A stretch of DNA of 64,000 nt from a virus. Numbering within the stretch: position 1 is the stretch's first letter; the number at the start of each line of letters is the position of its first letter. Both the position numbers and the translations under genes were made by a program. The stretch is taken from IMG/VR virus record IMGVR_UViG_3300047496_000262, positions 1-64,000 of that record, one strand, 5' to 3'. Positions 1-37,859 of this stretch are shown in pieces. The notes beneath the pieces are model-generated. The model searched no databases and had not been told where the DNA came from. It saw only the letters and a program-made list of their open reading frames with translations.

Positions 1-2029
1 CGGCCAGACCGGTGATGCCGAGGCCGATGCGGCGCTTGGCGATCGCCTCGTCACGCTGCGCCTCCAGCGGGAAGCGCGACACGTCGATCACGTTGTCCAG
101 CATGCGGATGGATGTGGTGACCAGACCGGTCAATACCCCTGGATGGATGTGAGCTGTGGGCTCGAACGGATCGTTCACTAGCGCCGCCAGATTGATCGAA
201 CCCAGGAGACACGCGCCATAGGGCGGGAGGGGTTGCTCGCCGCAGTTCGATGTGACGAACCCGCCATCCCAGAAGACGTGATCCGGATCGGCGACGGTGA
301 TGTCGAACACCTCGAAATCCCCCAGGTATTCGGATTCCGCAATATCGAAGGTGATCTTTTGCGGCTTTGGCCCCGCCTTATATTGCGCGACAAGTTCGGC
401 CAGGGCGGATTGTTTATAGCCTTGAACGAACCCGATTGTTGACGCGAAGACCATGGCGGACCGACCACTGAGATTGATGTCGTATGATGTCCGGCAGGTA
501 TAAAGGCCGTTCTGAAACACCACGTCGTGCGGATTATTTTTCGTGCGAAACGAGCGTATCCCCAGCGCCGACAACATCGCTTGGACCTGATCGGCTAGAC
601 GCAGCGATGTCGTCTTCAAGGCCACACGATTATAGGCCGGGAGCACGGAACCGTTTGCTGAGAACAGCCCGCGCAGGAACCCCGCTTGTTTGACCGCATC
701 GGCATAGAAGAAGCGATCTGGAATCGGGCGTTCTGGAAGGGGTGGTAATTCCGCCGACGTGACCGTTGTGGTGACGTGCCAGAGATTATCCCGCTGACCT
801 TCTGATTGCCGTACCAGTAGATGAGCGATCTCGGATTTAAGGTAATCCTGATCGTTGATACCGATCGCCAGACGGGGCGGCATACGTTCTTTTCTTGATC
901 CGTCGCCGATGACGAGCCCATCAAGAATATCCTGTGGATAAAGCGGGGTTCCGGCCTCCAACCGCAGGCCGGTGCAGGTATCCAGCGCGTCGGCCTGTGC
1001 GATCTCGACCTTCATGCCGCGCTGAACCACACGATGATTCTGGGTCAGATCAATCGCACCCGCTGTCGTGCGAAACCGATAGACCGGTTTGACGCCGGTC
1101 GACCATTTCGCTGTGATGGGAGTCCAGGTTTGACCGGTCCATGCCAGTTCACCAATTGAAACTTCCGATAGAGGCTTCACGCCTGTTCGGGTGAGAATCG
1201 GTGTCCAAGGTGGCAGGCAAGGATTCGTCGCCGCGATGGTCTCGCAATAGTCCAGATTATTGCGGTCGTTGATGCGGTCGATGAAGATCACGCCGGGCTC
1301 GGCATAGTCATAGGTCGCCCGCATGATGCGGTCCCAGAGATCCCGTGCGCGGATGGTGCGGTAGACCGTGCCGGCGAAGACCAGATCCCAATTGGTATCG
1401 TTCTTCACGGCATCCATGAACGCATCGGTCGCCAGCACCGAGACGTTGAACATGCGCAGCCGCCTGGGATCGCGCTTGGCATCGACGAACGCCTCAATAT
1501 CCGGATGATCGGCGCGCAAGGTCGCCATCATGGCGCCGCGCCGGGAGCCCGCCGACATGATGGTGCGGCACATCGAATCCCACACATCCATGAAGGAGAG
1601 CGGCCCCGAGGCATCGGCGCCGACGCCATGGACGGGCGCACCCTTGGGCCTGAGCGTCGAGAAATCATAACCGATGCCGCCGCCCTGCTGCATGGTCAGC
1701 GCCGCCTCGCGAAGGCCTGAGAAGATGCCGCTCATGTCGTCGGGGATCGTGCCCATGACGAAGCAGTTGAACAGCGTGACGCTGCGGCCGGTGCCGGCGC
1801 CGGCCAGGATCCGGCCGGCGGGGATGAATTTGAACCCATCCAGCGCGTCGTAGAATATGGGCTCCCATTGGGCGGGATCGGATTCGGCGGCGGCGATGGC
1901 CTTGGCGACGCGGCGCCAGGTGGCTTCGATGGTGTCGTCAATCGGGGTGCCGTCGGCGGCGTGCAGGCGGTATTTCATGCCCCAGACCTGGTGGGAGATC
2001 TCGGACATGCCGACGGATTTTTTTGCCAT
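1..2029 (-). CDS. nrdJ: Class II (adenosylcobalamin-dependent) ribonucleotide reductase, intein-containing; runs off the left edge
   Basis: Hand translation from ATG 2029: MAKKSVGMSEISHQVWGMKYRL...FIPAGRILAGAG...TLFNCFV...QQGGGIGYDFSTLRP...SRRGAMM...EPGVIFIDRIN...ATNP[intein]CGEQPLPPYGACLLGSINL. Absent from the ORF track because there is no stop codon inside the window. Confidence 0.95.
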   Translation of the reverse strand, partial: MAKKSVGMSEISHQVWGMKYRLHAADGTPIDDTIEATWRRVAKAIAAAESDPAQWEPIFYDALDGFKFIPAGRILAGAGTGRSVTLFNCFVMGTIPDDMSGIFSGLREAALTMQQGGGIGYDFSTLRPKGAPVHGVGADASGPLSFMDVWDSMCRTIMSAGSRRGAMMATLRADHPDIEAFVDAKRDPRRLRMFNVSVLATDAFMDAVKNDTNWDLVFAGTVYRTIRARDLWDRIMRATYDYAEPGVIFIDRINDRNNLDYCETIAATNPCLPPWTPILTRTGVKPLSEVSIGELAWTGQTWTPITAKWSTGVKPVYRFRTTAGAIDLTQNHRVVQRGMKVEIAQADALDTCTGLRLEAGTPLYPQDILDGLVIGDGSRKERMPPRLAIGINDQDYLKSEIAHLLVRQSEGQRDNLWHVTTTVTSAELPPLPERPIPDRFFYADAVKQAGFLRGLFSANGSVLPAYNRVALKTTSLRLADQVQAMLSALGIRSFRTKNNPHDVVFQNGLYTCRTSYDINLSGRSAMVFASTIGFVQGYKQSALAELVAQYKAGPKPQKITFDIAESEYLGDFEVFDITVADPDHVFWDGGFVTSNCGEQPLPPYGACLLGSINLAALVNDPFEPTAHIHPGVLTGLVTTSIRMLDNVIDVSRFPLEAQRDEAIAKRRIGLGITGLA
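245..1219 (-). mobile_element. Intein (325 aa) with LAGLIDADG homing endonuclease, inserted at the catalytic NP|CGE motif of NrdJ
   Basis: In-frame 975-nt insert starting CLPPWTPILT and ending VFDITVADPDHVFWDGGFVTSN, followed by extein CGEQP. Internal motifs LDGLVIGDG and FLRGLFSANG. Confidence 0.93.
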
Positions 2030-2066: not shown

Positions 2067-2097
2067 AGTGGCGACGGCGTTTCCATCCGCCGCCACT
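2067..2097 (-). terminator. GC-rich hairpin at the 3' end of pentamer array A (terminator or processing stem)
   Basis: Minus strand AGTGGCGGCGG-atggaaacg-CCGTCGCCACT (11-bp stem with one G-U), followed by GCTTTAT. Confidence 0.55.
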
Positions 2098-2106
2098 TCC
2101 TATGCA

Positions 2107-2263
2107 GACATAGCCTAGACCCGCCAACCTAGACATGCCTTGACGGGCGAACCATGACTGGCCAAGCCATACCAAAACTAACCCGGACAGCCTCGACGCT
2201 CCACACCGTGAAGCGCCAAGCCTTGACTCACCCGGACTGCCAAACCCAGCCGTAAACCACCCG
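2107..2263 (-). repeat. Pentamer-periodic array A (G[G/T]Y-NN units), candidate non-coding guide-like RNA
   Basis: Plus strand parses as RMC-NN: accat gactg gccaa gccat accaa aacta acccg |gaca| gcctc gacgc tccac accgt gaagc gccaa gcctt gactc acccg |gact| gccaa accca gccgt aaacc acccg. The 4-nt separators at 2186 and 2235 are 49 nt apart. Confidence 0.85.
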
Positions 2264-2381
2264 GAGGCCCCTGGTTCCGTCATCGGCGCGGATTTCGCGC
2301 TAACGGGAATACTGTGTCATGAGATTTATCGTTCGCGCAACAGGTTTTCGCGTTTGTGAGATTACCGGCCGCACCGGCTGG

Positions 2382-2828
2382 TCATGCGTCGTGGCGGATG
2401 GAAGGCGGGGTGCGTAAGAGCGGCCGGTAATCGGCCAGGGCTTTCGGGTCTGGATTATTCCAGGCATCGAACAGGGACGATTCCCCCTCGGTGGCATGAA
2501 ACAGGTCGCGAGCGCGCAGCCAGATCAGGAAATCCTGGGCCACCTTCGGATCCAGCCAATAGGCATTCCAGCACCAGTTGCCCCACCAATCCTTGGATCT
2601 GATGAACGGCCAGCGCTTGCCGGCGAGGATGAAGTGACCGCCGTCTTCACGGAACCGGGGACACCTTGCGAATGAATACCCGTTCCACTGCTTGGCTTCG
2701 AGTGTCAGCCCATCCGGGTTAATCTCAATTTGAGGGACTCGGCCGGCGAACAGACCGTTATCGGGGTCGTTGCAGGCAAAGTCGAACCGGACCTCATCAG
2801 TGATCCCGTATGGAACAATCGTGTGCAT
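2382..2828 (-). CDS. Hypothetical phage protein (Trp-rich)
   Basis: MHTIVPYGITDEVRFDF... in a coupled minus-strand operon. Confidence 0.7.
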   Translation of the reverse strand: MHTIVPYGITDEVRFDFACNDPDNGLFAGRVPQIEINPDGLTLEAKQWNGYSFARCPRFREDGGHFILAGKRWPFIRSKDWWGNWCWNAYWLDPKVAQDFLIWLRARDLFHATEGESSLFDAWNNPDPKALADYRPLLRTPPSIRHDA

Positions 2829-4071
2829 GGTTGATCCTGTCTGGCTGGTGCAACCGCTCCACGAGGCTGATCCGCTCGCCAATCCATCGGATGACGGGCA
2901 CCGCCATGCTGTTACCCAGCGCGCGATACCGATGGCCGTCAGTGACCGGCTTGCCGCGAAAGGGAATATCGGTCCAGCCGTCAGGAAACCCTTGGAGGCG
3001 CTCGCATTCCAGCGGGGTTAATCGGCGGACGGCTGAGCGCGTGGCAACGGCCAAATGGCCGCCGGCATTGGCGTGGCTTCCGGCGTGACCTAGCGTTCGC
3101 ATGGTCGGGGCCGTATCCCCAGCATAGCCGCCGTCATCCTTGTACGAAAACGCAACAGCACCGACGCCCACGCCGCCCCGGCCGCCGGTCGGGGTCAGGA
3201 CGGCATTCGCAACACCATCGTCGCGCGTTTCAAGCTGATGGCCGTCACCGCGCCCGCGCGAGGCCAACGTGTAGACGAACGTCTCGGTCTCGGCATCGAT
3301 GCGACCATGCGGACCACCATGAGCGCTGAGCGCGTGTGATATCGGGTGCCTCGCCTGCGCTTGGTTATCGTCCGCGCCGCAGGTGCCGACGCCGGTTGCA
3401 GACAGCGCGCCTACAACCAACTCTCCAGCCGCCGCTTCATCCGCCCCTACTCGCCATCCGTTGCCGCTTGAAGTGCCGCCAAGAGTTCCGATGGCAGTGT
3501 CCGGCCTCGGGCCTTGGCCCGTCGTAAGATCCCGGCGCAGGCTCGCGCGCTCAAATAATACCGCTGCGGCACGGGTCCAGTCTCCAAGATATGCAACAAC
3601 GAAGACGCGACGGCGGGATTGGGGCACTCCGTAGTATCGAGCGTCGCAAACGCGGTAAGCGAACCCATACCCGAGTTGCCCCAAGAGCCCGAGGATGGAT
3701 CCAAACGTCCGTCCTCCGTCAAGCGACAGAACGCCAGGGACGTTTTCCCAAACGAGCCAACGGGGCAGAAGTCTCTCAGCAAGGCGTATAAACTCAAGCG
3801 TGAGATTCCCGCGCTCGCCAGTAATGCCCGCTCTAAGTCCCGCGATGCTGAAATCCTGGCAGGGGGTGCCGCCGATAAGAAGGTCAATTGACTGGTAGTC
3901 GCCGGCGTTGATCGTCGTAAAGTCGCCATGCAAAGGGACCCCAGGCAAGCGGTGTTGCAGTAACGCGCGCGGGAACGGCGCGACCTCCGAACAGAATGCC
4001 CCTCGCCACCCCAGCGGCTCCCATGCGACGCTCGCCGCCTCAATCCCGCTGCACACGCTGCCGAAGATCAC
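2797..4071 (-). CDS. dcm: DNA cytosine-C5 methyltransferase
   Basis: GTG start overlapping the upstream stop. Motifs SVCSGIEA, GGTPCQDFS, WENVPG, QSRRRVF, RRLTPLECERLQGFPD, ALGNSM. Confidence 0.93.
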   Translation of the reverse strand: MIFGSVCSGIEAASVAWEPLGWRGAFCSEVAPFPRALLQHRLPGVPLHGDFTTINAGDYQSIDLLIGGTPCQDFSIAGLRAGITGERGNLTLEFIRLAERLLPRWLVWENVPGVLSLDGGRTFGSILGLLGQLGYGFAYRVCDARYYGVPQSRRRVFVVAYLGDWTRAAAVLFERASLRRDLTTGQGPRPDTAIGTLGGTSSGNGWRVGADEAAAGELVVGALSATGVGTCGADDNQAQARHPISHALSAHGGPHGRIDAETETFVYTLASRGRGDGHQLETRDDGVANAVLTPTGGRGGVGVGAVAFSYKDDGGYAGDTAPTMRTLGHAGSHANAGGHLAVATRSAVRRLTPLECERLQGFPDGWTDIPFRGKPVTDGHRYRALGNSMAVPVIRWIGERISLVERLHQPDRINHAHDCSIRDH

Positions 4072-6740: not shown

Positions 6741-7018
6741 GGTGCAAGCTCCGTGGCGATGGCAACTAGGCGCGCCATCCGATCGTGAAATTCCGGGTCA
6801 TACGTGGTGCCGAACACTTCTTCGTCTGACCGCACCATGTCGGACAGCGCCATCACCGCATCCAGCAGGCGCGCGCGGAGGTCGCGGTAGGCGTCGGCAA
6901 GGGTAATGCCGGCGGCCGTGTATTCGGACGAGCCGTAAAACGGATACATTTCCGCTAGCCGGCCGATGACCAACAGCGCGGCCTGGATTTTCTCAGGCGT
7001 CGGGTTCATCTCATTCAC
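6737..7018 (-). CDS. Hypothetical protein
   Basis: GTGA-coupled ORF in the operon. Confidence 0.55.
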   Translation of the reverse strand: MNEMNPTPEKIQAALLVIGRLAEMYPFYGSSEYTAAGITLADAYRDLRARLLDAVMALSDMVRSDEEVFGTTYDPEFHDRMARLVAIATELAP

Positions 7019-7878
7019 ACTCGGTGCTCCACCTGATACGTCAAGATCCACGCCTGGACGATGCGGGCCAGCGGGTTCGTGGCTGGCGTGTCACCGAGAC
7101 TGATGCCGTAGAAAAACCGCTCGACGGGGCTGTAGGAATCGACGAACGGCAGCGTTTGTGCTTTGACCCCGCGCGCGATGGCGATCGTGCCACAGAGACA
7201 GCCGCATCCATTGCGGTTGTAGGCGCTGCCGTCCACTCGACCGGCCCGCAGCGCGGCCAGCAGGGCCGGTATCTCCGGTTGTGCCTGATCAAGCACGCGG
7301 GCGAGGTCGGCGCGAATGGGAGCCCATGACGGGTGGTCAGGCGGCGAGAAAATCGCGCGGGCCAGTCTCGCGCCGGTCAGATTGGCGCCGGTCAGAGTGG
7401 CGCCGGGCAGTCGAGCGTCGGCCAGAGTGGTCCAGGCCAGATCGGCACCGGTCAGATTGGCCCCGGTCAGATCGGCCTTGGTCAGATTGGCCGCGGTCAG
7501 TTGAGCCCAAGACAGATCGGTTTCAATCAGAGTGGCCCCGGTCAGTCTCGCGCCGGTCAGTCTCGCGCCGGACAGAGTGGCGCCGGCCATCCAAGCGTCG
7601 GCCAGTCTCGCGCCGGACAGAGTGGCGCCGGTCAGATCGGCGCCGGTCAGAGTGGACCCGGCCAGATCGGCGCGGGTCAGATTGGCCCCGGTCAGTCTCG
7701 CGTCGGCCAGAGTGGTCCAGGCCAGATCGGCGCCGGTCAGAGTGGCCCCGGTCAGATCGGCCTTGTCGCCGATCGCCGTTTCGAGCGCGACGCGCGCGCA
7801 ATAGGCCGGCTCGGTCCCGTCCGGGATGTCGACCAGCAGCGGCGCACGGTCGGTCTCGAATTGGATAGGATACAGCAT
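7015..7878 (-). CDS. Pentapeptide repeat protein
   Basis: More than 25 A(D/T/R/N)L(T/S/A)(G/x) pentapeptides (15-nt DNA repeats, about 7350-7765), then a C-terminal GRVDGSAY...CGCLCGTIA domain. Confidence 0.92.
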   Translation of the reverse strand: MLYPIQFETDRAPLLVDIPDGTEPAYCARVALETAIGDKADLTGATLTGADLAWTTLADARLTGANLTRADLAGSTLTGADLTGATLSGARLADAWMAGATLSGARLTGARLTGATLIETDLSWAQLTAANLTKADLTGANLTGADLAWTTLADARLPGATLTGANLTGARLARAIFSPPDHPSWAPIRADLARVLDQAQPEIPALLAALRAGRVDGSAYNRNGCGCLCGTIAIARGVKAQTLPFVDSYSPVERFFYGISLGDTPATNPLARIVQAWILTYQVEHRV

Positions 7879-7880
7879 GA

Positions 7881-8075
7881 TCAGGCTCCTTTCCACAAAT
7901 CGCTGCGTCCGAATTTCGCCACCGGCTCGCCCTGGTGGCCGCCACCGTCGCCATCGTCGCACCCGTCGCCCTCGCAGTCCGGGCACTGACGCAGATCGGT
8001 CAGCATCTCCGGGTCATCGTCCTGCGGGTCGTGCCGCATCAGCCGGCCATTCAGGCAGCAGAGGTCGCCTTTCAT
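7881..8075 (-). CDS. Small acidic Cys protein, copy 1 (MKGDLCCLNGRLMRHDPQDDDP)
   Basis: Close paralogue at 9180-9374. Confidence 0.75.
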   Translation of the reverse strand: MKGDLCCLNGRLMRHDPQDDDPEMLTDLRQCPDCEGDGCDDGDGGGHQGEPVAKFGRSDLWKGA

Positions 8076-26009: not shown

Positions 26010-26040
26010 TACCGCGGCCGGAAGGTGCTTGAGAGACAGG

Positions 26041-26357
26041 ACCTGCCGCACCGAACCCGGCCCGACCCCGCCGCGCCCCACCTTGACTGCATGACCAGGA
26101 CGCGCCGCGACGTAACGAGCCTTGACCCACCACGACCGCCCTGACTCGCCTTAACCGGCCAAGCACACCTCGCCTCGACCGCCAGACCGTGACGCGACAG
26201 ACAAGGCCTAGACCCACCTTGACTGCCGAACCCGGAACAAACACGACGGGCCCGGCCAAAACAAGCCCTGACCGCCTTGACGGTCGCACCGGAACGCGCC
26301 TCGACACGCCATACCTCAACGTGCCCCACCTTGCCTGAACCCACCTCAACACACCAA
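26041..26357 (-). repeat. Pentamer-periodic array B (G[G/T]Y-NN units), candidate multi-unit guide-like RNA array
   Basis: Plus strand: |acct| gccgc accga acccg gcccg acccc gccgc gcccc acctt |gact| gcatg accag gacgc gccgc gacgt aacga gcctt gaccc accac |gacc| ... Separators at 26041, 26085, 26134, 26177, 26221 and 26270 give units of 44, 49, 43, 44 and 49 nt. Confidence 0.9.
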
Positions 26358-26391: not shown

Positions 26392-26709
26392 CTAAGCCGC
26401 CATATCCGCCTCATTATCCGGCGGATCCTGCTCCGACCCGTCGTCGTCACCGCGTTGAATCGCGCGGATTTCGGCGTCGATGCCGGTAATTTGTTGCACC
26501 AGAAGCGCGCGGTTGCATCTCAGCCGGCCCAGCAGAAGTTCGTTTAGCGCCATGATAGTACGAACGTACACCGGAACCGGCAGATCGCCGCTGACCCATC
26601 GATAAACCGTGTTCAGGGCACAACCGGCCTGGGCGCCCAGTTGCCGGCGGCTGATGCCCAGCGTCTTCAGCGCGGCATTCAGCGATTTTCCATCGGTGAT
26701 CGGGCTCAT
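26392..26709 (-). CDS. XRE-family HTH transcriptional regulator
   Basis: LKTLGISRRQLGAQAGCALNTVYRWVSG...VPVYV. Confidence 0.8.
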   Translation of the reverse strand: MSPITDGKSLNAALKTLGISRRQLGAQAGCALNTVYRWVSGDLPVPVYVRTIMALNELLLGRLRCNRALLVQQITGIDAEIRAIQRGDDDGSEQDPPDNEADMAA

Positions 26710-37830: not shown

Positions 37831-37859
37831 TTGCGTTTACGCGAGTCGCGTGGTATAAT
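37831..37859 (+). promoter_or_regulatory. Near-consensus sigma70 promoter ahead of the morphogenesis operon, with operator
   Basis: TTGCGT-N17-TATAAT with extended -10 TG; TTGCGTTTACGCGA at 37831-37844. Confidence 0.75.

What the first reader, a model, noticed from the sequence alone, without database searches (positions are those of the whole stretch)
2067..2340. Pentamer array A: second locus with the same grammar, its own upstream operator and a 3' hairpin
It lies 24 kb from array B on the same strand, with the same RMC-NN units and the same junction (acccg-GACA-gcc at 2186, acccg-GACT-gcc at 2235; 49-nt unit) but different NN content. It is bracketed upstream by an operator-like site (TCGCGCTAACGGGA, 2295-2308) and a TTGCGC -35-like box (2335-2340), and downstream by an 11-bp hairpin (2067-2097), so it looks like a stand-alone small-RNA gene in front of nrdJ. 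Recurrence of the grammar without sequence identity argues for selection on the pattern itself.
Basis: partly seen in the sequence, partly recalled or inferred. Interest (0 to 1): 0.88.

Follow-up and report, generated by a model that had tools for sequence, protein, structure and literature searches.

The report
Small phage VIPR guide-RNA array
The 200-base stretch in front of this phage's ribonucleotide-reductase gene is a small array of VIPR guide RNAs (five-base GGY-NN repeats of a CRISPR-like system first described in 2026), so it is one more example of a known kind, here with no VIPR protein gene on the contig.

Summary
On the minus strand, 2263-2108 parses as NN-G(G/T)(C/T) pentamers. 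The triplet is conserved and the NN are free. Runs this long occur only here and in two larger arrays of the same phage (26.0-26.4 kb and 71.9-72.3 kb of the 79.8-kb contig). The 4-nt phase breaks are 1-nt overlaps between neighbouring guides. This is the published grammar of VIPR vrRNAs in their 'staggered array' form (bioRxiv 10.64898/2026.04.26.720920). An IMG/VR scan found similar arrays in over 100 contigs. In 79 of them the array lies next to a ~200-aa protein that matches the solved SUSP1 Vipr protein. This scan has met the same kind of array on other DNA before.

Array A is small and partly degenerate: guides of 10 and 8-9 units, plus fragments. No vipr gene is detectable on the contig (88% complete), so the arrays are orphans or vipr lies in the missing part. 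Metatranscriptome contigs cover the array and the start of nrdJ. One guide, read by the 1-nt-skip rule, spells the conserved N-terminal NrdJ motif of rival phages better than the phage's own copy. That result is suggestive only (p about 0.02-0.05). Verdict: a real feature and a new member of a known kind.

The parts
2360..2432 (-). Inverted repeat with 13-nt arms and a 47-nt loop, overlapping the stop of the upstream gene (2382-2882). Probable terminator that separates that gene from the array unit.
   Evidence: seen as a spurious mir-8515 alignment with perfect 13-bp arms. Metatranscriptome contigs do not cover it.
2327..2340 (-). TTGCGC box inside a two-mismatch copy of the palindromic operator motif. 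Candidate -35/operator. Inferred, not shown.
   Evidence: Sequence and motif family. At 37831 the same motif overlaps a good TTGCGT-17-TATAAT promoter. The promoter scan is negative here.
2295..2308 (.). Operator-like palindrome, one mismatch to TYGCGYNNRCGCRA.
   Evidence: 5 exact copies (0.23 expected) and 10 one-mismatch copies (3.9 expected). Similar sites lie upstream of array C (72361) and of the operon that ends in array B (27210).
2239..2263 (-). Partial guide A0: 5 units, one with an off-grammar triplet (TTT).
   Evidence: Manual parse of the and sequence.
2190..2239 (-). Guide A1: 10 units starting C-A-GTC, two with off-grammar triplets (TTC, GGA). It shares its last base with the first base of A2.
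   Evidence: No target found.
2146..2190 (-). Guide A2: 8 perfect units starting C-T-GTC (2151-2190), plus a ninth unit with triplet GCC. Its NN bases, read with one skipped base, spell [DE][IM]W[KN]MKYR.
2108..2146 (-). Degenerate 3' part: runs of 2-4 units with local duplications (GTCTAGG twice, ATGTCT twice).
   Evidence: A3, 4 units, 2127-2146.
2067..2097 (-). GC-rich hairpin that closes the array, followed by a weak U tract. Probably a leaky terminator or a processing/stability element.
   Evidence: -23.7 kcal/mol, z = -4.0. Arrays B and C end with unrelated hairpins (z = -6.7 and -6.2). An RNA-library contig, 1923-2122, crosses it.
1965..1990 (-). nrdJ codons 14-22 (QVWGMKYRL): the phage's own copy of the site that guide A2 spells. 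It matches 12 of 18 guide letters.
2..2029 (-). nrdJ (class II ribonucleotide reductase, cut by the contig end) with a 325-aa intein at 245-1219. It is the gene directly downstream of the array.
26035..26357 (-). Array B: six guides of 5-14 units with the same grammar and the same junctions. Array C lies outside the window at contig 71862-72284.

Best explanation
Array A is a small 'staggered' array of VIPR guide RNAs (vrRNAs) on the minus strand. It starts after the terminator-like inverted repeat of the upstream gene and is probably transcribed from a repressor-controlled promoter near 2340-2300. The transcript carries tandem NN-G(G/U)(C/U) units. By the published mechanism, one Vipr protomer binds each unit, flips out the triplet and presents the NN bases. 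The NN bases then pair with double-stranded DNA, skipping every third target base, and the gene is silenced. Neighbouring guides overlap by one base, which produces the 4-nt phase breaks. In this phage every such break has the form GG(C/U)|N-GUC. Array A holds two usable guides (10 and 8-9 units) plus decayed fragments. It ends in a hairpin just before nrdJ, and transcription probably reads through into nrdJ. No vipr gene is on the contig. So the Vipr protein is encoded in the missing ~12% of the genome, or it is borrowed from a co-resident element, as described for solo vrRNAs. Shown here: the grammar, its restriction to three loci, its identity with arrays that sit next to Vipr genes in other phages, and its presence in RNA libraries. 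Inferred: the promoter, processing, Vipr loading and the targets.
For: The grammar is far beyond chance and confined to three same-strand loci. All phase breaks are 1-nt overlaps of the form GGY|N-GTC, including the two in array A. This matches the 'staggered arrays' of fig. S18 in bioRxiv 10.64898/2026.04.26.720920. The published vrRNA definition is GGY/NN repeats with the NN bases as the guide under a 1-nt skip rule. A scan for 14 consecutive RMC-NN units in IMG/VR gave at least 119 contigs. In 79 of them a homologous ~200-aa protein lies a median of 12 nt from the array, on the G-rich strand in 72 of 80 cases. That protein matches PDB 36pp_D, 'SUSP1 Vipr protein', at E = 8e-7 across the G-loop. 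Some of those arrays also mix GGC, GGT, GTT and GTC triplets (L076, L081). The flanking genes are on the minus strand. Each of the three arrays ends in a strong hairpin on that strand. Metatranscriptome contigs identical to the window cover 1923-2122 and 2121-2316 and nothing in 2317-3547, while a DNA run covers everything. No guide matches the phage's own genome at 80% or more. Guide A2 spells the NrdJ N-terminal motif in frame with the wobble base skipped: 15/18 in one rival phage, 16/16 over units 2-9 in another, and 12/18 in the phage's own copy.
Against: No Vipr homologue is found in the 79.8-kb contig by phmmer, by PHROG 4652, by a local 81-sequence profile run with --max (the only hit is an off-frame ORF inside a tail-fibre gene) or by hhalign of 314 ORFs (best probability 4.5%). 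Array A is short and partly degenerate (3 off-grammar triplets, fragmentary 3' third), so it could be decaying. RNA-library contigs show neither strand nor ends, and such libraries can contain DNA. The consensus scans find no promoter or terminator. Guide A1 has no target, and exact scans of IMG/VR, JGI metagenomes and GTDB genomes with five guide patterns gave nothing. The A2-nrdJ match has p of only about 0.02-0.05 before correction for the 3-4 guides tried. The 32 retrieved phages with related nrdJ genes have no array in front of nrdJ.
Confidence: 0.8

Rival explanations
1. Decaying relic. Array A descends from a vrRNA array but no longer supplies working guides. It survives as part of the long 5' leader of nrdJ.
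For: It has 3 off-grammar triplets (2 among its 22 called units, plus the ninth unit of A2). Its 3' third is broken into 2-4-unit fragments with local duplications. It is the shortest of the three arrays. There is no vipr on the contig. Guide A1 has no detectable target.
Against: An 8-unit perfect run and both junctions are intact. The published callers accept 4 or more units and note frequent internal degeneracy. The NN versus scaffold information contrast is as sharp as in arrays B and C. Guide A2 has a plausible in-frame target.
Confidence: 0.13
2. A cis-acting leader of nrdJ unrelated to VIPR, such as a riboswitch, an attenuator, or a TRAP-like protein-binding repeat RNA that controls reductase expression.
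For: It lies directly upstream of nrdJ, ends in a hairpin 37 nt before the ATG, and seems to be co-transcribed. A fixed triplet plus a 2-nt spacer is also the grammar of TRAP sites (own knowledge).
Against: No Rfam family matches, even at E = 10. The whole leader is not unusually structured (z = -1.46). The same grammar recurs at two loci with no reductase context. The 32 related nrdJ loci lack it. The grammar is explained exactly by VIPR.
Confidence: 0.04
3. A DNA-level element (iterons, an origin of replication or another protein-binding array), a compositional artefact, or the translated ORF 1975-2283.
For: The heptamer CCTNGAC clusters at all three loci (71 copies against 27.5 expected genome-wide). 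An ORF of 102 codons spans the region.
Against: The heptamer is a by-product of the junction GTC-NA-GG. A 5-nt period with 1-nt overlaps is not a known iteron grammar. The ORF's GC by codon position (0.53/0.70/0.54) is unlike that of real genes here, and it overlaps the nrdJ start. A fixed third codon base beside free first and second bases is incompatible with selection on a protein.
Confidence: 0.03

Closest known systems
VIPR systems with staggered vrRNA arrays (bioRxiv 10.64898/2026.04.26.720920, fig. S18; structures in 10.64898/2026.04.26.720927)
   Same: Tandem 5-nt units with a conserved GGY-like triplet and hypervariable NN. Guides abut with a 1-nt overlap. Phage-borne and transcribed in the G-rich sense. 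No guide matches its own genome at 80% or more.
   Different: The triplet is relaxed to G-(G/U)-(C/U) within single guides. Every junction is GGY|N-GUC, whereas the other staggered arrays inspected here use GGC|A-GGC. The arrays sit at three loci 24 and 46 kb apart instead of flanking vipr. No vipr or vap gene is recognisable on the contig.
Solo (orphan) vrRNAs of F5 satellites and VIPR-null SUSP1-family phages (bioRxiv 10.64898/2026.10.15.759431)
   Same: vrRNA genes carried by an element with no vipr of its own, presumed to use a Vipr made elsewhere.
   Different: Those are 1-2 single vrRNAs with a pseudoknot tail, left at the site of a vipr-vap1 deletion in Enterobacteriaceae phages. Here there are about 17 guides in three staggered arrays in a 62% GC phage from a moss metagenome. 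Absence of vipr cannot be proven because the contig is 88% complete.
Class 1 CRISPR crRNA with a Cas7 backbone
   Same: A RAMP filament on a guide RNA, with periodic bases flipped out of the duplex, and arrays of guides processed from one transcript.
   Different: The period is 5 with 3 bases flipped, not 6 with 1. There are no repeat-spacer units, no acquisition genes and no PAM. The target is read as NN-x.
TRAP-binding (G/U)AG-NN repeats of the Bacillus trp leader (own knowledge, not tested here)
   Same: A fixed triplet plus a 2-3-nt free spacer, repeated in a 5' leader and read by an oligomeric protein.
   Different: TRAP sites number 9-11, are cis-regulatory and carry no information in the spacers. 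No TRAP-like gene or trp context is present here.

Membership tests
VIPR vrRNA array | Tandem 5-nt units with a conserved GGY-type triplet and hypervariable NN, at least 4 units (criterion of the published callers) | tested here: met
   Runs of 8 and 5 perfect units, or 10 units allowing two bad triplets. NN positions carry 0.01 and 0.18 bits against 1.73, 1.02 and 0.86 bits for the triplet. The triplet is G-K-Y, not strictly GGY.
VIPR vrRNA array | Staggered architecture: adjacent vrRNAs overlap by 1 nt | tested here: met
   A0/A1 share base 2239 and A1/A2 share base 2190. The same holds at every junction of arrays B and C and in Vipr-linked arrays of other phages.
VIPR system | A Vipr (minimal RAMP) gene in the locus or genome | tested here: not met
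   No hit by phmmer, PHROG 4652, a local Vipr profile or hhalign on the 79,848-nt contig. The contig is 88% complete, so absence from the phage is not proven.
VIPR system | An accessory vap gene next to vipr | not tested
   No vap profiles were available. An XRE-type HTH gene ends 8 nt before array B, but nothing ties it to vap.
VIPR vrRNA array | Transcribed and processed into ~50-100-nt RNAs that co-purify with Vipr | tested here: inconclusive
   Metatranscriptome contigs cover 1923-2316 at 100% identity. Contigs show no strand, ends or processing, and the two runs are probably one data set.
VIPR vrRNA array | NN bases match a natural target at 80% or more under the 1-nt skip rule, usually in frame with the wobble base skipped | tested here: inconclusive
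   Guide A2 against the nrdJ N-terminus of other phages: 15/18 (L153) and 16/18 (L183, 16/16 over units 2-9), in frame. The null gives p = 0.05 in any frame and 0.02 in frame. Guide A1 has no target.
VIPR vrRNA array | No self-target at 80% or more | tested here: met
   The best own-genome matches of the longer guides are 15/20 for A1 (75%) and 12/16 for A2 (75%), or 13/18 when A2 is extended to nine units. All are at the level of shuffled guides. The 4- and 5-unit fragments are too short to be informative.
Solo vrRNA of a VIPR-null element | The complete genome lacks vipr while carrying vrRNA genes | tested here: inconclusive
   vipr is absent from the 88% of the genome held.
Known cis-regulatory RNA of nrdJ (cobalamin riboswitch or any other Rfam family) | A match to a covariance model | tested here: not met
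   No Rfam hit at gathering score over the whole window. Only noise appears at E up to 10 in 1950-2450.

The most novel reading that the evidence does not exclude
The dispersed orphan arrays may be 'weapon plus antidote' cassettes. Guide A2 sits 160 nt upstream of nrdJ and spells the conserved NrdJ N-terminal motif (E/Q)IWNMKYR as rival phages encode it. The phage's own nrdJ carries two substitutions seen in none of the other 27 alleles compared (I to V, D/N to G), exactly at letters the guide reads. If so, the guide and a resistant allele of its own target are inherited together. The phage would then silence the nucleotide supply of co-infecting rivals using a Vipr it may not even encode. The GGY|N-GUC junction would also mark a so far undescribed processing variant of staggered arrays.
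Probability: 0.3. Interest if true: 0.65.

Novelty: new member of a known kind. Interest (0 to 1): 0.35.

Why it matters
The unusual five-base rhythm is explained by the VIPR systems published in 2026, so the grammar itself needs no new mechanism. Array A adds three points.

- vrRNA arrays occur dispersed through a 62% GC environmental phage with no vipr beside them. That extends the 'solo vrRNA' idea beyond enterobacterial phages.
- The scaffold can be relaxed to G-(G/U)-Y, with a GUC-marked junction.
- A guide may be kept next to a resistant copy of its own target. If that is confirmed, it would show how phages link an RNA-guided weapon to self-immunity.

For annotation, the practical lesson is that long 'empty' leaders with a 5-nt rhythm should be called as guide-RNA genes and not as ORFs.

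Tried and rejected
- **Rfam:** nothing at gathering score or at E up to 10.
- **Consensus promoter and terminator scan:** none found.
- **Fold of the whole 321-nt leader:** z = -1.46, not special.
- **Tandem Repeats Finder and period-5 Fourier power:** both miss the arrays because of the phase breaks.
- **blastn of the leader against INPHARED phages:** no match.
- **Relatives:**
  - L121 (72% identity to the upstream 166-aa protein) is not syntenic and has no array.
  - L123 (37% identity to the gene beside array C) has no array.
  - A JGI metagenome search with the protein at the contig's right end found no relative. The contig therefore could not be extended to look for vipr.
- **PHROG scans of 20 neighbouring or unassigned proteins:** no RAMP-like family. 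A G-loop regex gave only implausible hits.
- **Target searches with exact 1-nt-skip patterns, all with zero hits:**
  - C7 and A1 in IMG/VR.
  - B1 in JGI metagenomes.
  - C2 and A1 in GTDB genomes.
- **Mismatch-tolerant scans:** scans of the phage's own genome and of 1.2 Mb of fetched Vipr loci stayed at null level for every guide.
- **Guide A1 against nrdJ codons 258-267 (13/20, in frame):** rejected as chance. Relatives score lower (6-12) and about 4 such matches are expected nearby.
- **Near matches of guides C2 and C8 in their neighbouring genes:** at chance level.
- **Early ideas dropped:** Rho-utilisation site, R-loop origin, primase sites, pentapeptide coding. None explains free NN bases beside a fixed triplet with 1-nt overlaps.

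Full report
**Where it lies.** The window is the first 64 kb of a 79,848-nt IMG/VR phage contig that CheckV rates 88% complete. The finding lies in a 352-nt gap on the minus strand. Upstream is a 166-aa gene of unknown function (2382-2882). Downstream is nrdJ, which starts at 2029, carries an intein and is cut by the contig end.

- Perfect runs of 5 or more units occur in the whole contig only at three places. These are 2151 (8 units) and 2215 (5); 26035-26357 (runs of 5-14); and 71862-72284 (runs of 5-15).
- All runs are on the same strand. Block shuffles give at most 4-6 units.
- In array A the NN positions carry 0.01 and 0.18 bits and the triplet positions 1.73, 1.02 and 0.86 bits. Arrays B and C look the same.
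- The heptamer CCTNGAC clusters at the three loci. It is a by-product of the junction.
- The hairpin at 2067-2097 is strong (-23.7 kcal/mol, z = -4.0). Arrays B and C end in unrelated but equally strong hairpins on the minus strand.
- ORF 1975-2283 is not coding. Its GC by codon position is 0.53/0.70/0.54, where real genes here have GC3 of 0.70-0.89, and it overlaps the nrdJ start. A fixed third codon base beside free first and second bases also cannot come from selection on a protein.

**What it is.**
- A scan of IMG/VR for 14 consecutive RMC-NN units returned at least 119 contigs. Most are diverse GCC-NN, ACC-NN or GAC-NN arrays and a few are plain microsatellites.
- In all four arrays first inspected, a ~200-aa protein with the C-terminal motif GDFRP lay beside the array.
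- An iterative search found this protein in 79 loci. It lies a median of 12 nt from the nearest array, and in 72 of 80 cases the G-rich strand of the array is the protein's coding strand.
- The protein belongs to PHROG 4652, of unknown function. It matches the solved 'SUSP1 Vipr protein' (PDB 36pp_D) at E = 8e-7 across the G-loop.
In them, vrRNAs are tandem GGY/NN repeats. One Vipr protomer binds each repeat and flips out GGY. The NN bases pair with DNA while skipping every third base, and the outcome is transcriptional silencing of rival mobile elements. The published architectures include 'staggered arrays', in which adjacent vrRNAs overlap by 1 nt.
- That overlap is exactly what the 4-nt phase breaks are here. 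In all three arrays each guide starts at the last base of the previous one, always in the form GG(C/T)|N-GTC.
- Staggered arrays next to Vipr genes in other phages use GGC|A-GGC. Mixed GGC, GGT, GTT and GTC triplets also occur beside Vipr genes, for example in L076 and L081.

**Anatomy of array A on the minus strand**.
- A partial 5-unit guide at 2263-2239.
- Guide A1 at 2239-2190: 10 units, two with off-grammar triplets.
- Guide A2 at 2190-2151: 8 perfect units, plus a ninth unit with triplet GCC.
- Fragments of 2-4 units with small duplications, down to 2108.
- The closing hairpin at 2097-2067, followed by the nrdJ ribosome-binding site.

Array A is the smallest and most degenerate of the three arrays.

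**Expression.**
- Upstream, a 13-bp-arm inverted repeat (2360-2432) overlaps the stop of the preceding gene and probably ends that transcription unit.
- Between it and the array lie a TTGCGC box and a one-mismatch copy of a palindrome, TYGCGYNNRCGCRA. The palindrome has 5 exact copies in the genome (0.23 expected), and one of them overlaps a good promoter at 37831. One-mismatch copies are only 2.6-fold enriched, so the site at 2295 is plausible and not secure. The sigma-70 scan finds no promoter.
- Two metatranscriptome runs from moss, probably one data set filed twice, hold contigs identical to 1923-2122 and 2121-2316 and nothing in 2317-3547. A DNA run covers everything.
- This fits a transcript that starts a little upstream of the array and reads through the hairpin into nrdJ. 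Contigs give neither strand nor ends, and DNA carry-over cannot be excluded.

**The missing protein.** No Vipr homologue is on the contig. The searches were phmmer, PHROG 4652, a local profile run without filters (its one weak hit is an off-frame ORF inside a tail-fibre gene) and hhalign of 314 ORFs. PHROG scans of neighbouring and unassigned proteins show nothing RAMP-like. In 73 of 80 other cases vipr lies within 500 nt of an array, so this phage is unusual. Either vipr lies in the missing ~12% of the genome, or the arrays are solo vrRNAs of the kind described for satellites and VIPR-null phages. Attempts to extend the contig failed.

**Targets.**
- No guide matches the phage's own genome at 80% or more.
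- Exact 1-nt-skip scans of the big collections with five guide patterns found nothing.
- Following a lead from earlier notes, I compared array A's guides with the neighbouring gene in other phages. Thirty-two IMG/VR loci with related nrdJ genes were fetched. None has an array in front of nrdJ.
- Guide A2, read antisense, spells [DE][IM]W[KN]MKYR, in frame and with the skipped base at the wobble position. This is the conserved NrdJ motif at codons 14-21.
- A2's scores at that site:

| nrdJ allele | Peptide | Guide letters matched |
|---|---|---|
| L153 | QIWNMKYRY | 15/18 |
| Closest relatives | QIWDMKYR(F/L), QMWDMKYRL | 14/18 |
| L183, low-GC phage | EIWNMKYRY | 16/16 over units 2-9 |
| Own copy | QVWGMKYRL | 12/18 |

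- The V and G of the own copy are seen in none of the other 27 alleles compared.
- Shuffled guides reach 15/18 in these nrdJ genes in 5% of trials in any frame and in 2% in frame. With 3-4 guides tried, this is suggestive and no more.
- Guide A1's best match in nrdJ is chance.
- Guide C6 of array C matches a tail gene of IMGVR_UViG_3300025018_000174 at 17/18, in frame. The null reaches this in 1 of 600 trials, and it is the only such site in IMG/VR. This gives some independent support that the phage's arrays are read by the VIPR code. That contig and L153's contig come from one sample. They share only nrdJ with this phage and have no arrays and no vipr.

**Verdict.** Array A is a genuine, small, partly decayed staggered vrRNA array of the VIPR kind. 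It was probably transcribed together with nrdJ. It sits in a phage whose assembled 88% lacks vipr. The kind is already published, and this scan has met it on other DNA. The points of interest are the relaxed G-K-Y scaffold with GUC-marked junctions, the dispersal of orphan arrays over three loci, and the possible pairing of a guide with a resistant allele of its own target.

Noticed in passing
L122:7862-8284 (contig 71862-72284, outside the window): Third and largest array (C): eight guides of 5-15 units. It lies between a 134-aa coiled-coil gene and a 257-aa gene of unknown function, with an operator-like palindrome upstream (72361) and a hairpin downstream.
   Followed up: partly
L122:7985-8029 (guide C6) and L134:11178-11203: Guide C6 matches a large tail/host-specificity-like gene of IMGVR_UViG_3300025018_000174 at 17 of 18 letters, in frame (PISIGDRGS). 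Shuffled guides reach this in 1 of 600 trials. It is the only such site in IMG/VR, and this phage has no homologue of that gene.
   Followed up: yes
window 245-1219 (-): nrdJ carries a 325-aa intein inserted at the TNPC|CGEQ active-site motif. One DNA contig of the moss metagenome joins 245 to 1267, which hints at co-occurring intein-free relatives. The hint is weak: the short side is 28 nt at 90% likeness.
   Followed up: partly
window 7015-7986 (-), repeats 7370-7761: A pentapeptide-repeat protein gene (A[DN]LxG-type, about 26 repeats of 15 nt). It gives the strongest period-5 signal in the genome but is ordinary coding sequence.
   Followed up: partly
window 12286, 21472, 27210, 30067, 37831 (exact); 2295, 14749, 30102, 35969 and contig 72361 (one mismatch): The 14-bp palindrome TYGCGYNNRCGCRA is enriched (5 exact copies against 0.23 expected) and intergenic. 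At 37831 it overlaps a TTGCGT-17-TATAAT promoter. It is probably the operator of a phage repressor that also controls the units containing the three arrays.
   Followed up: partly
window 2360-2432: A DNA run shows loose ends at 2367 and 2407 and extra depth over 2201-2400. Strains in the same sample therefore seem to differ at the border of the array unit.
   Followed up: no
window 26392-26709 (-): An XRE-type HTH gene ends 8 nt before array B, so array B may be its 3' UTR. Some published VIPR types have HTH or winged-helix accessory genes, but no link is shown here.
   Followed up: no
L069, L025, L088, L009 and about 75 further IMG/VR loci: Very large vrRNA arrays (up to 211 units, perfect runs up to 51) lie beside Vipr genes, often in recombination modules (Sak4-like ATPase, DUF669, RusA). 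Some have conserved spacers or hairpins between guides. Eight arrays lie on the strand opposite to vipr.
   Followed up: partly
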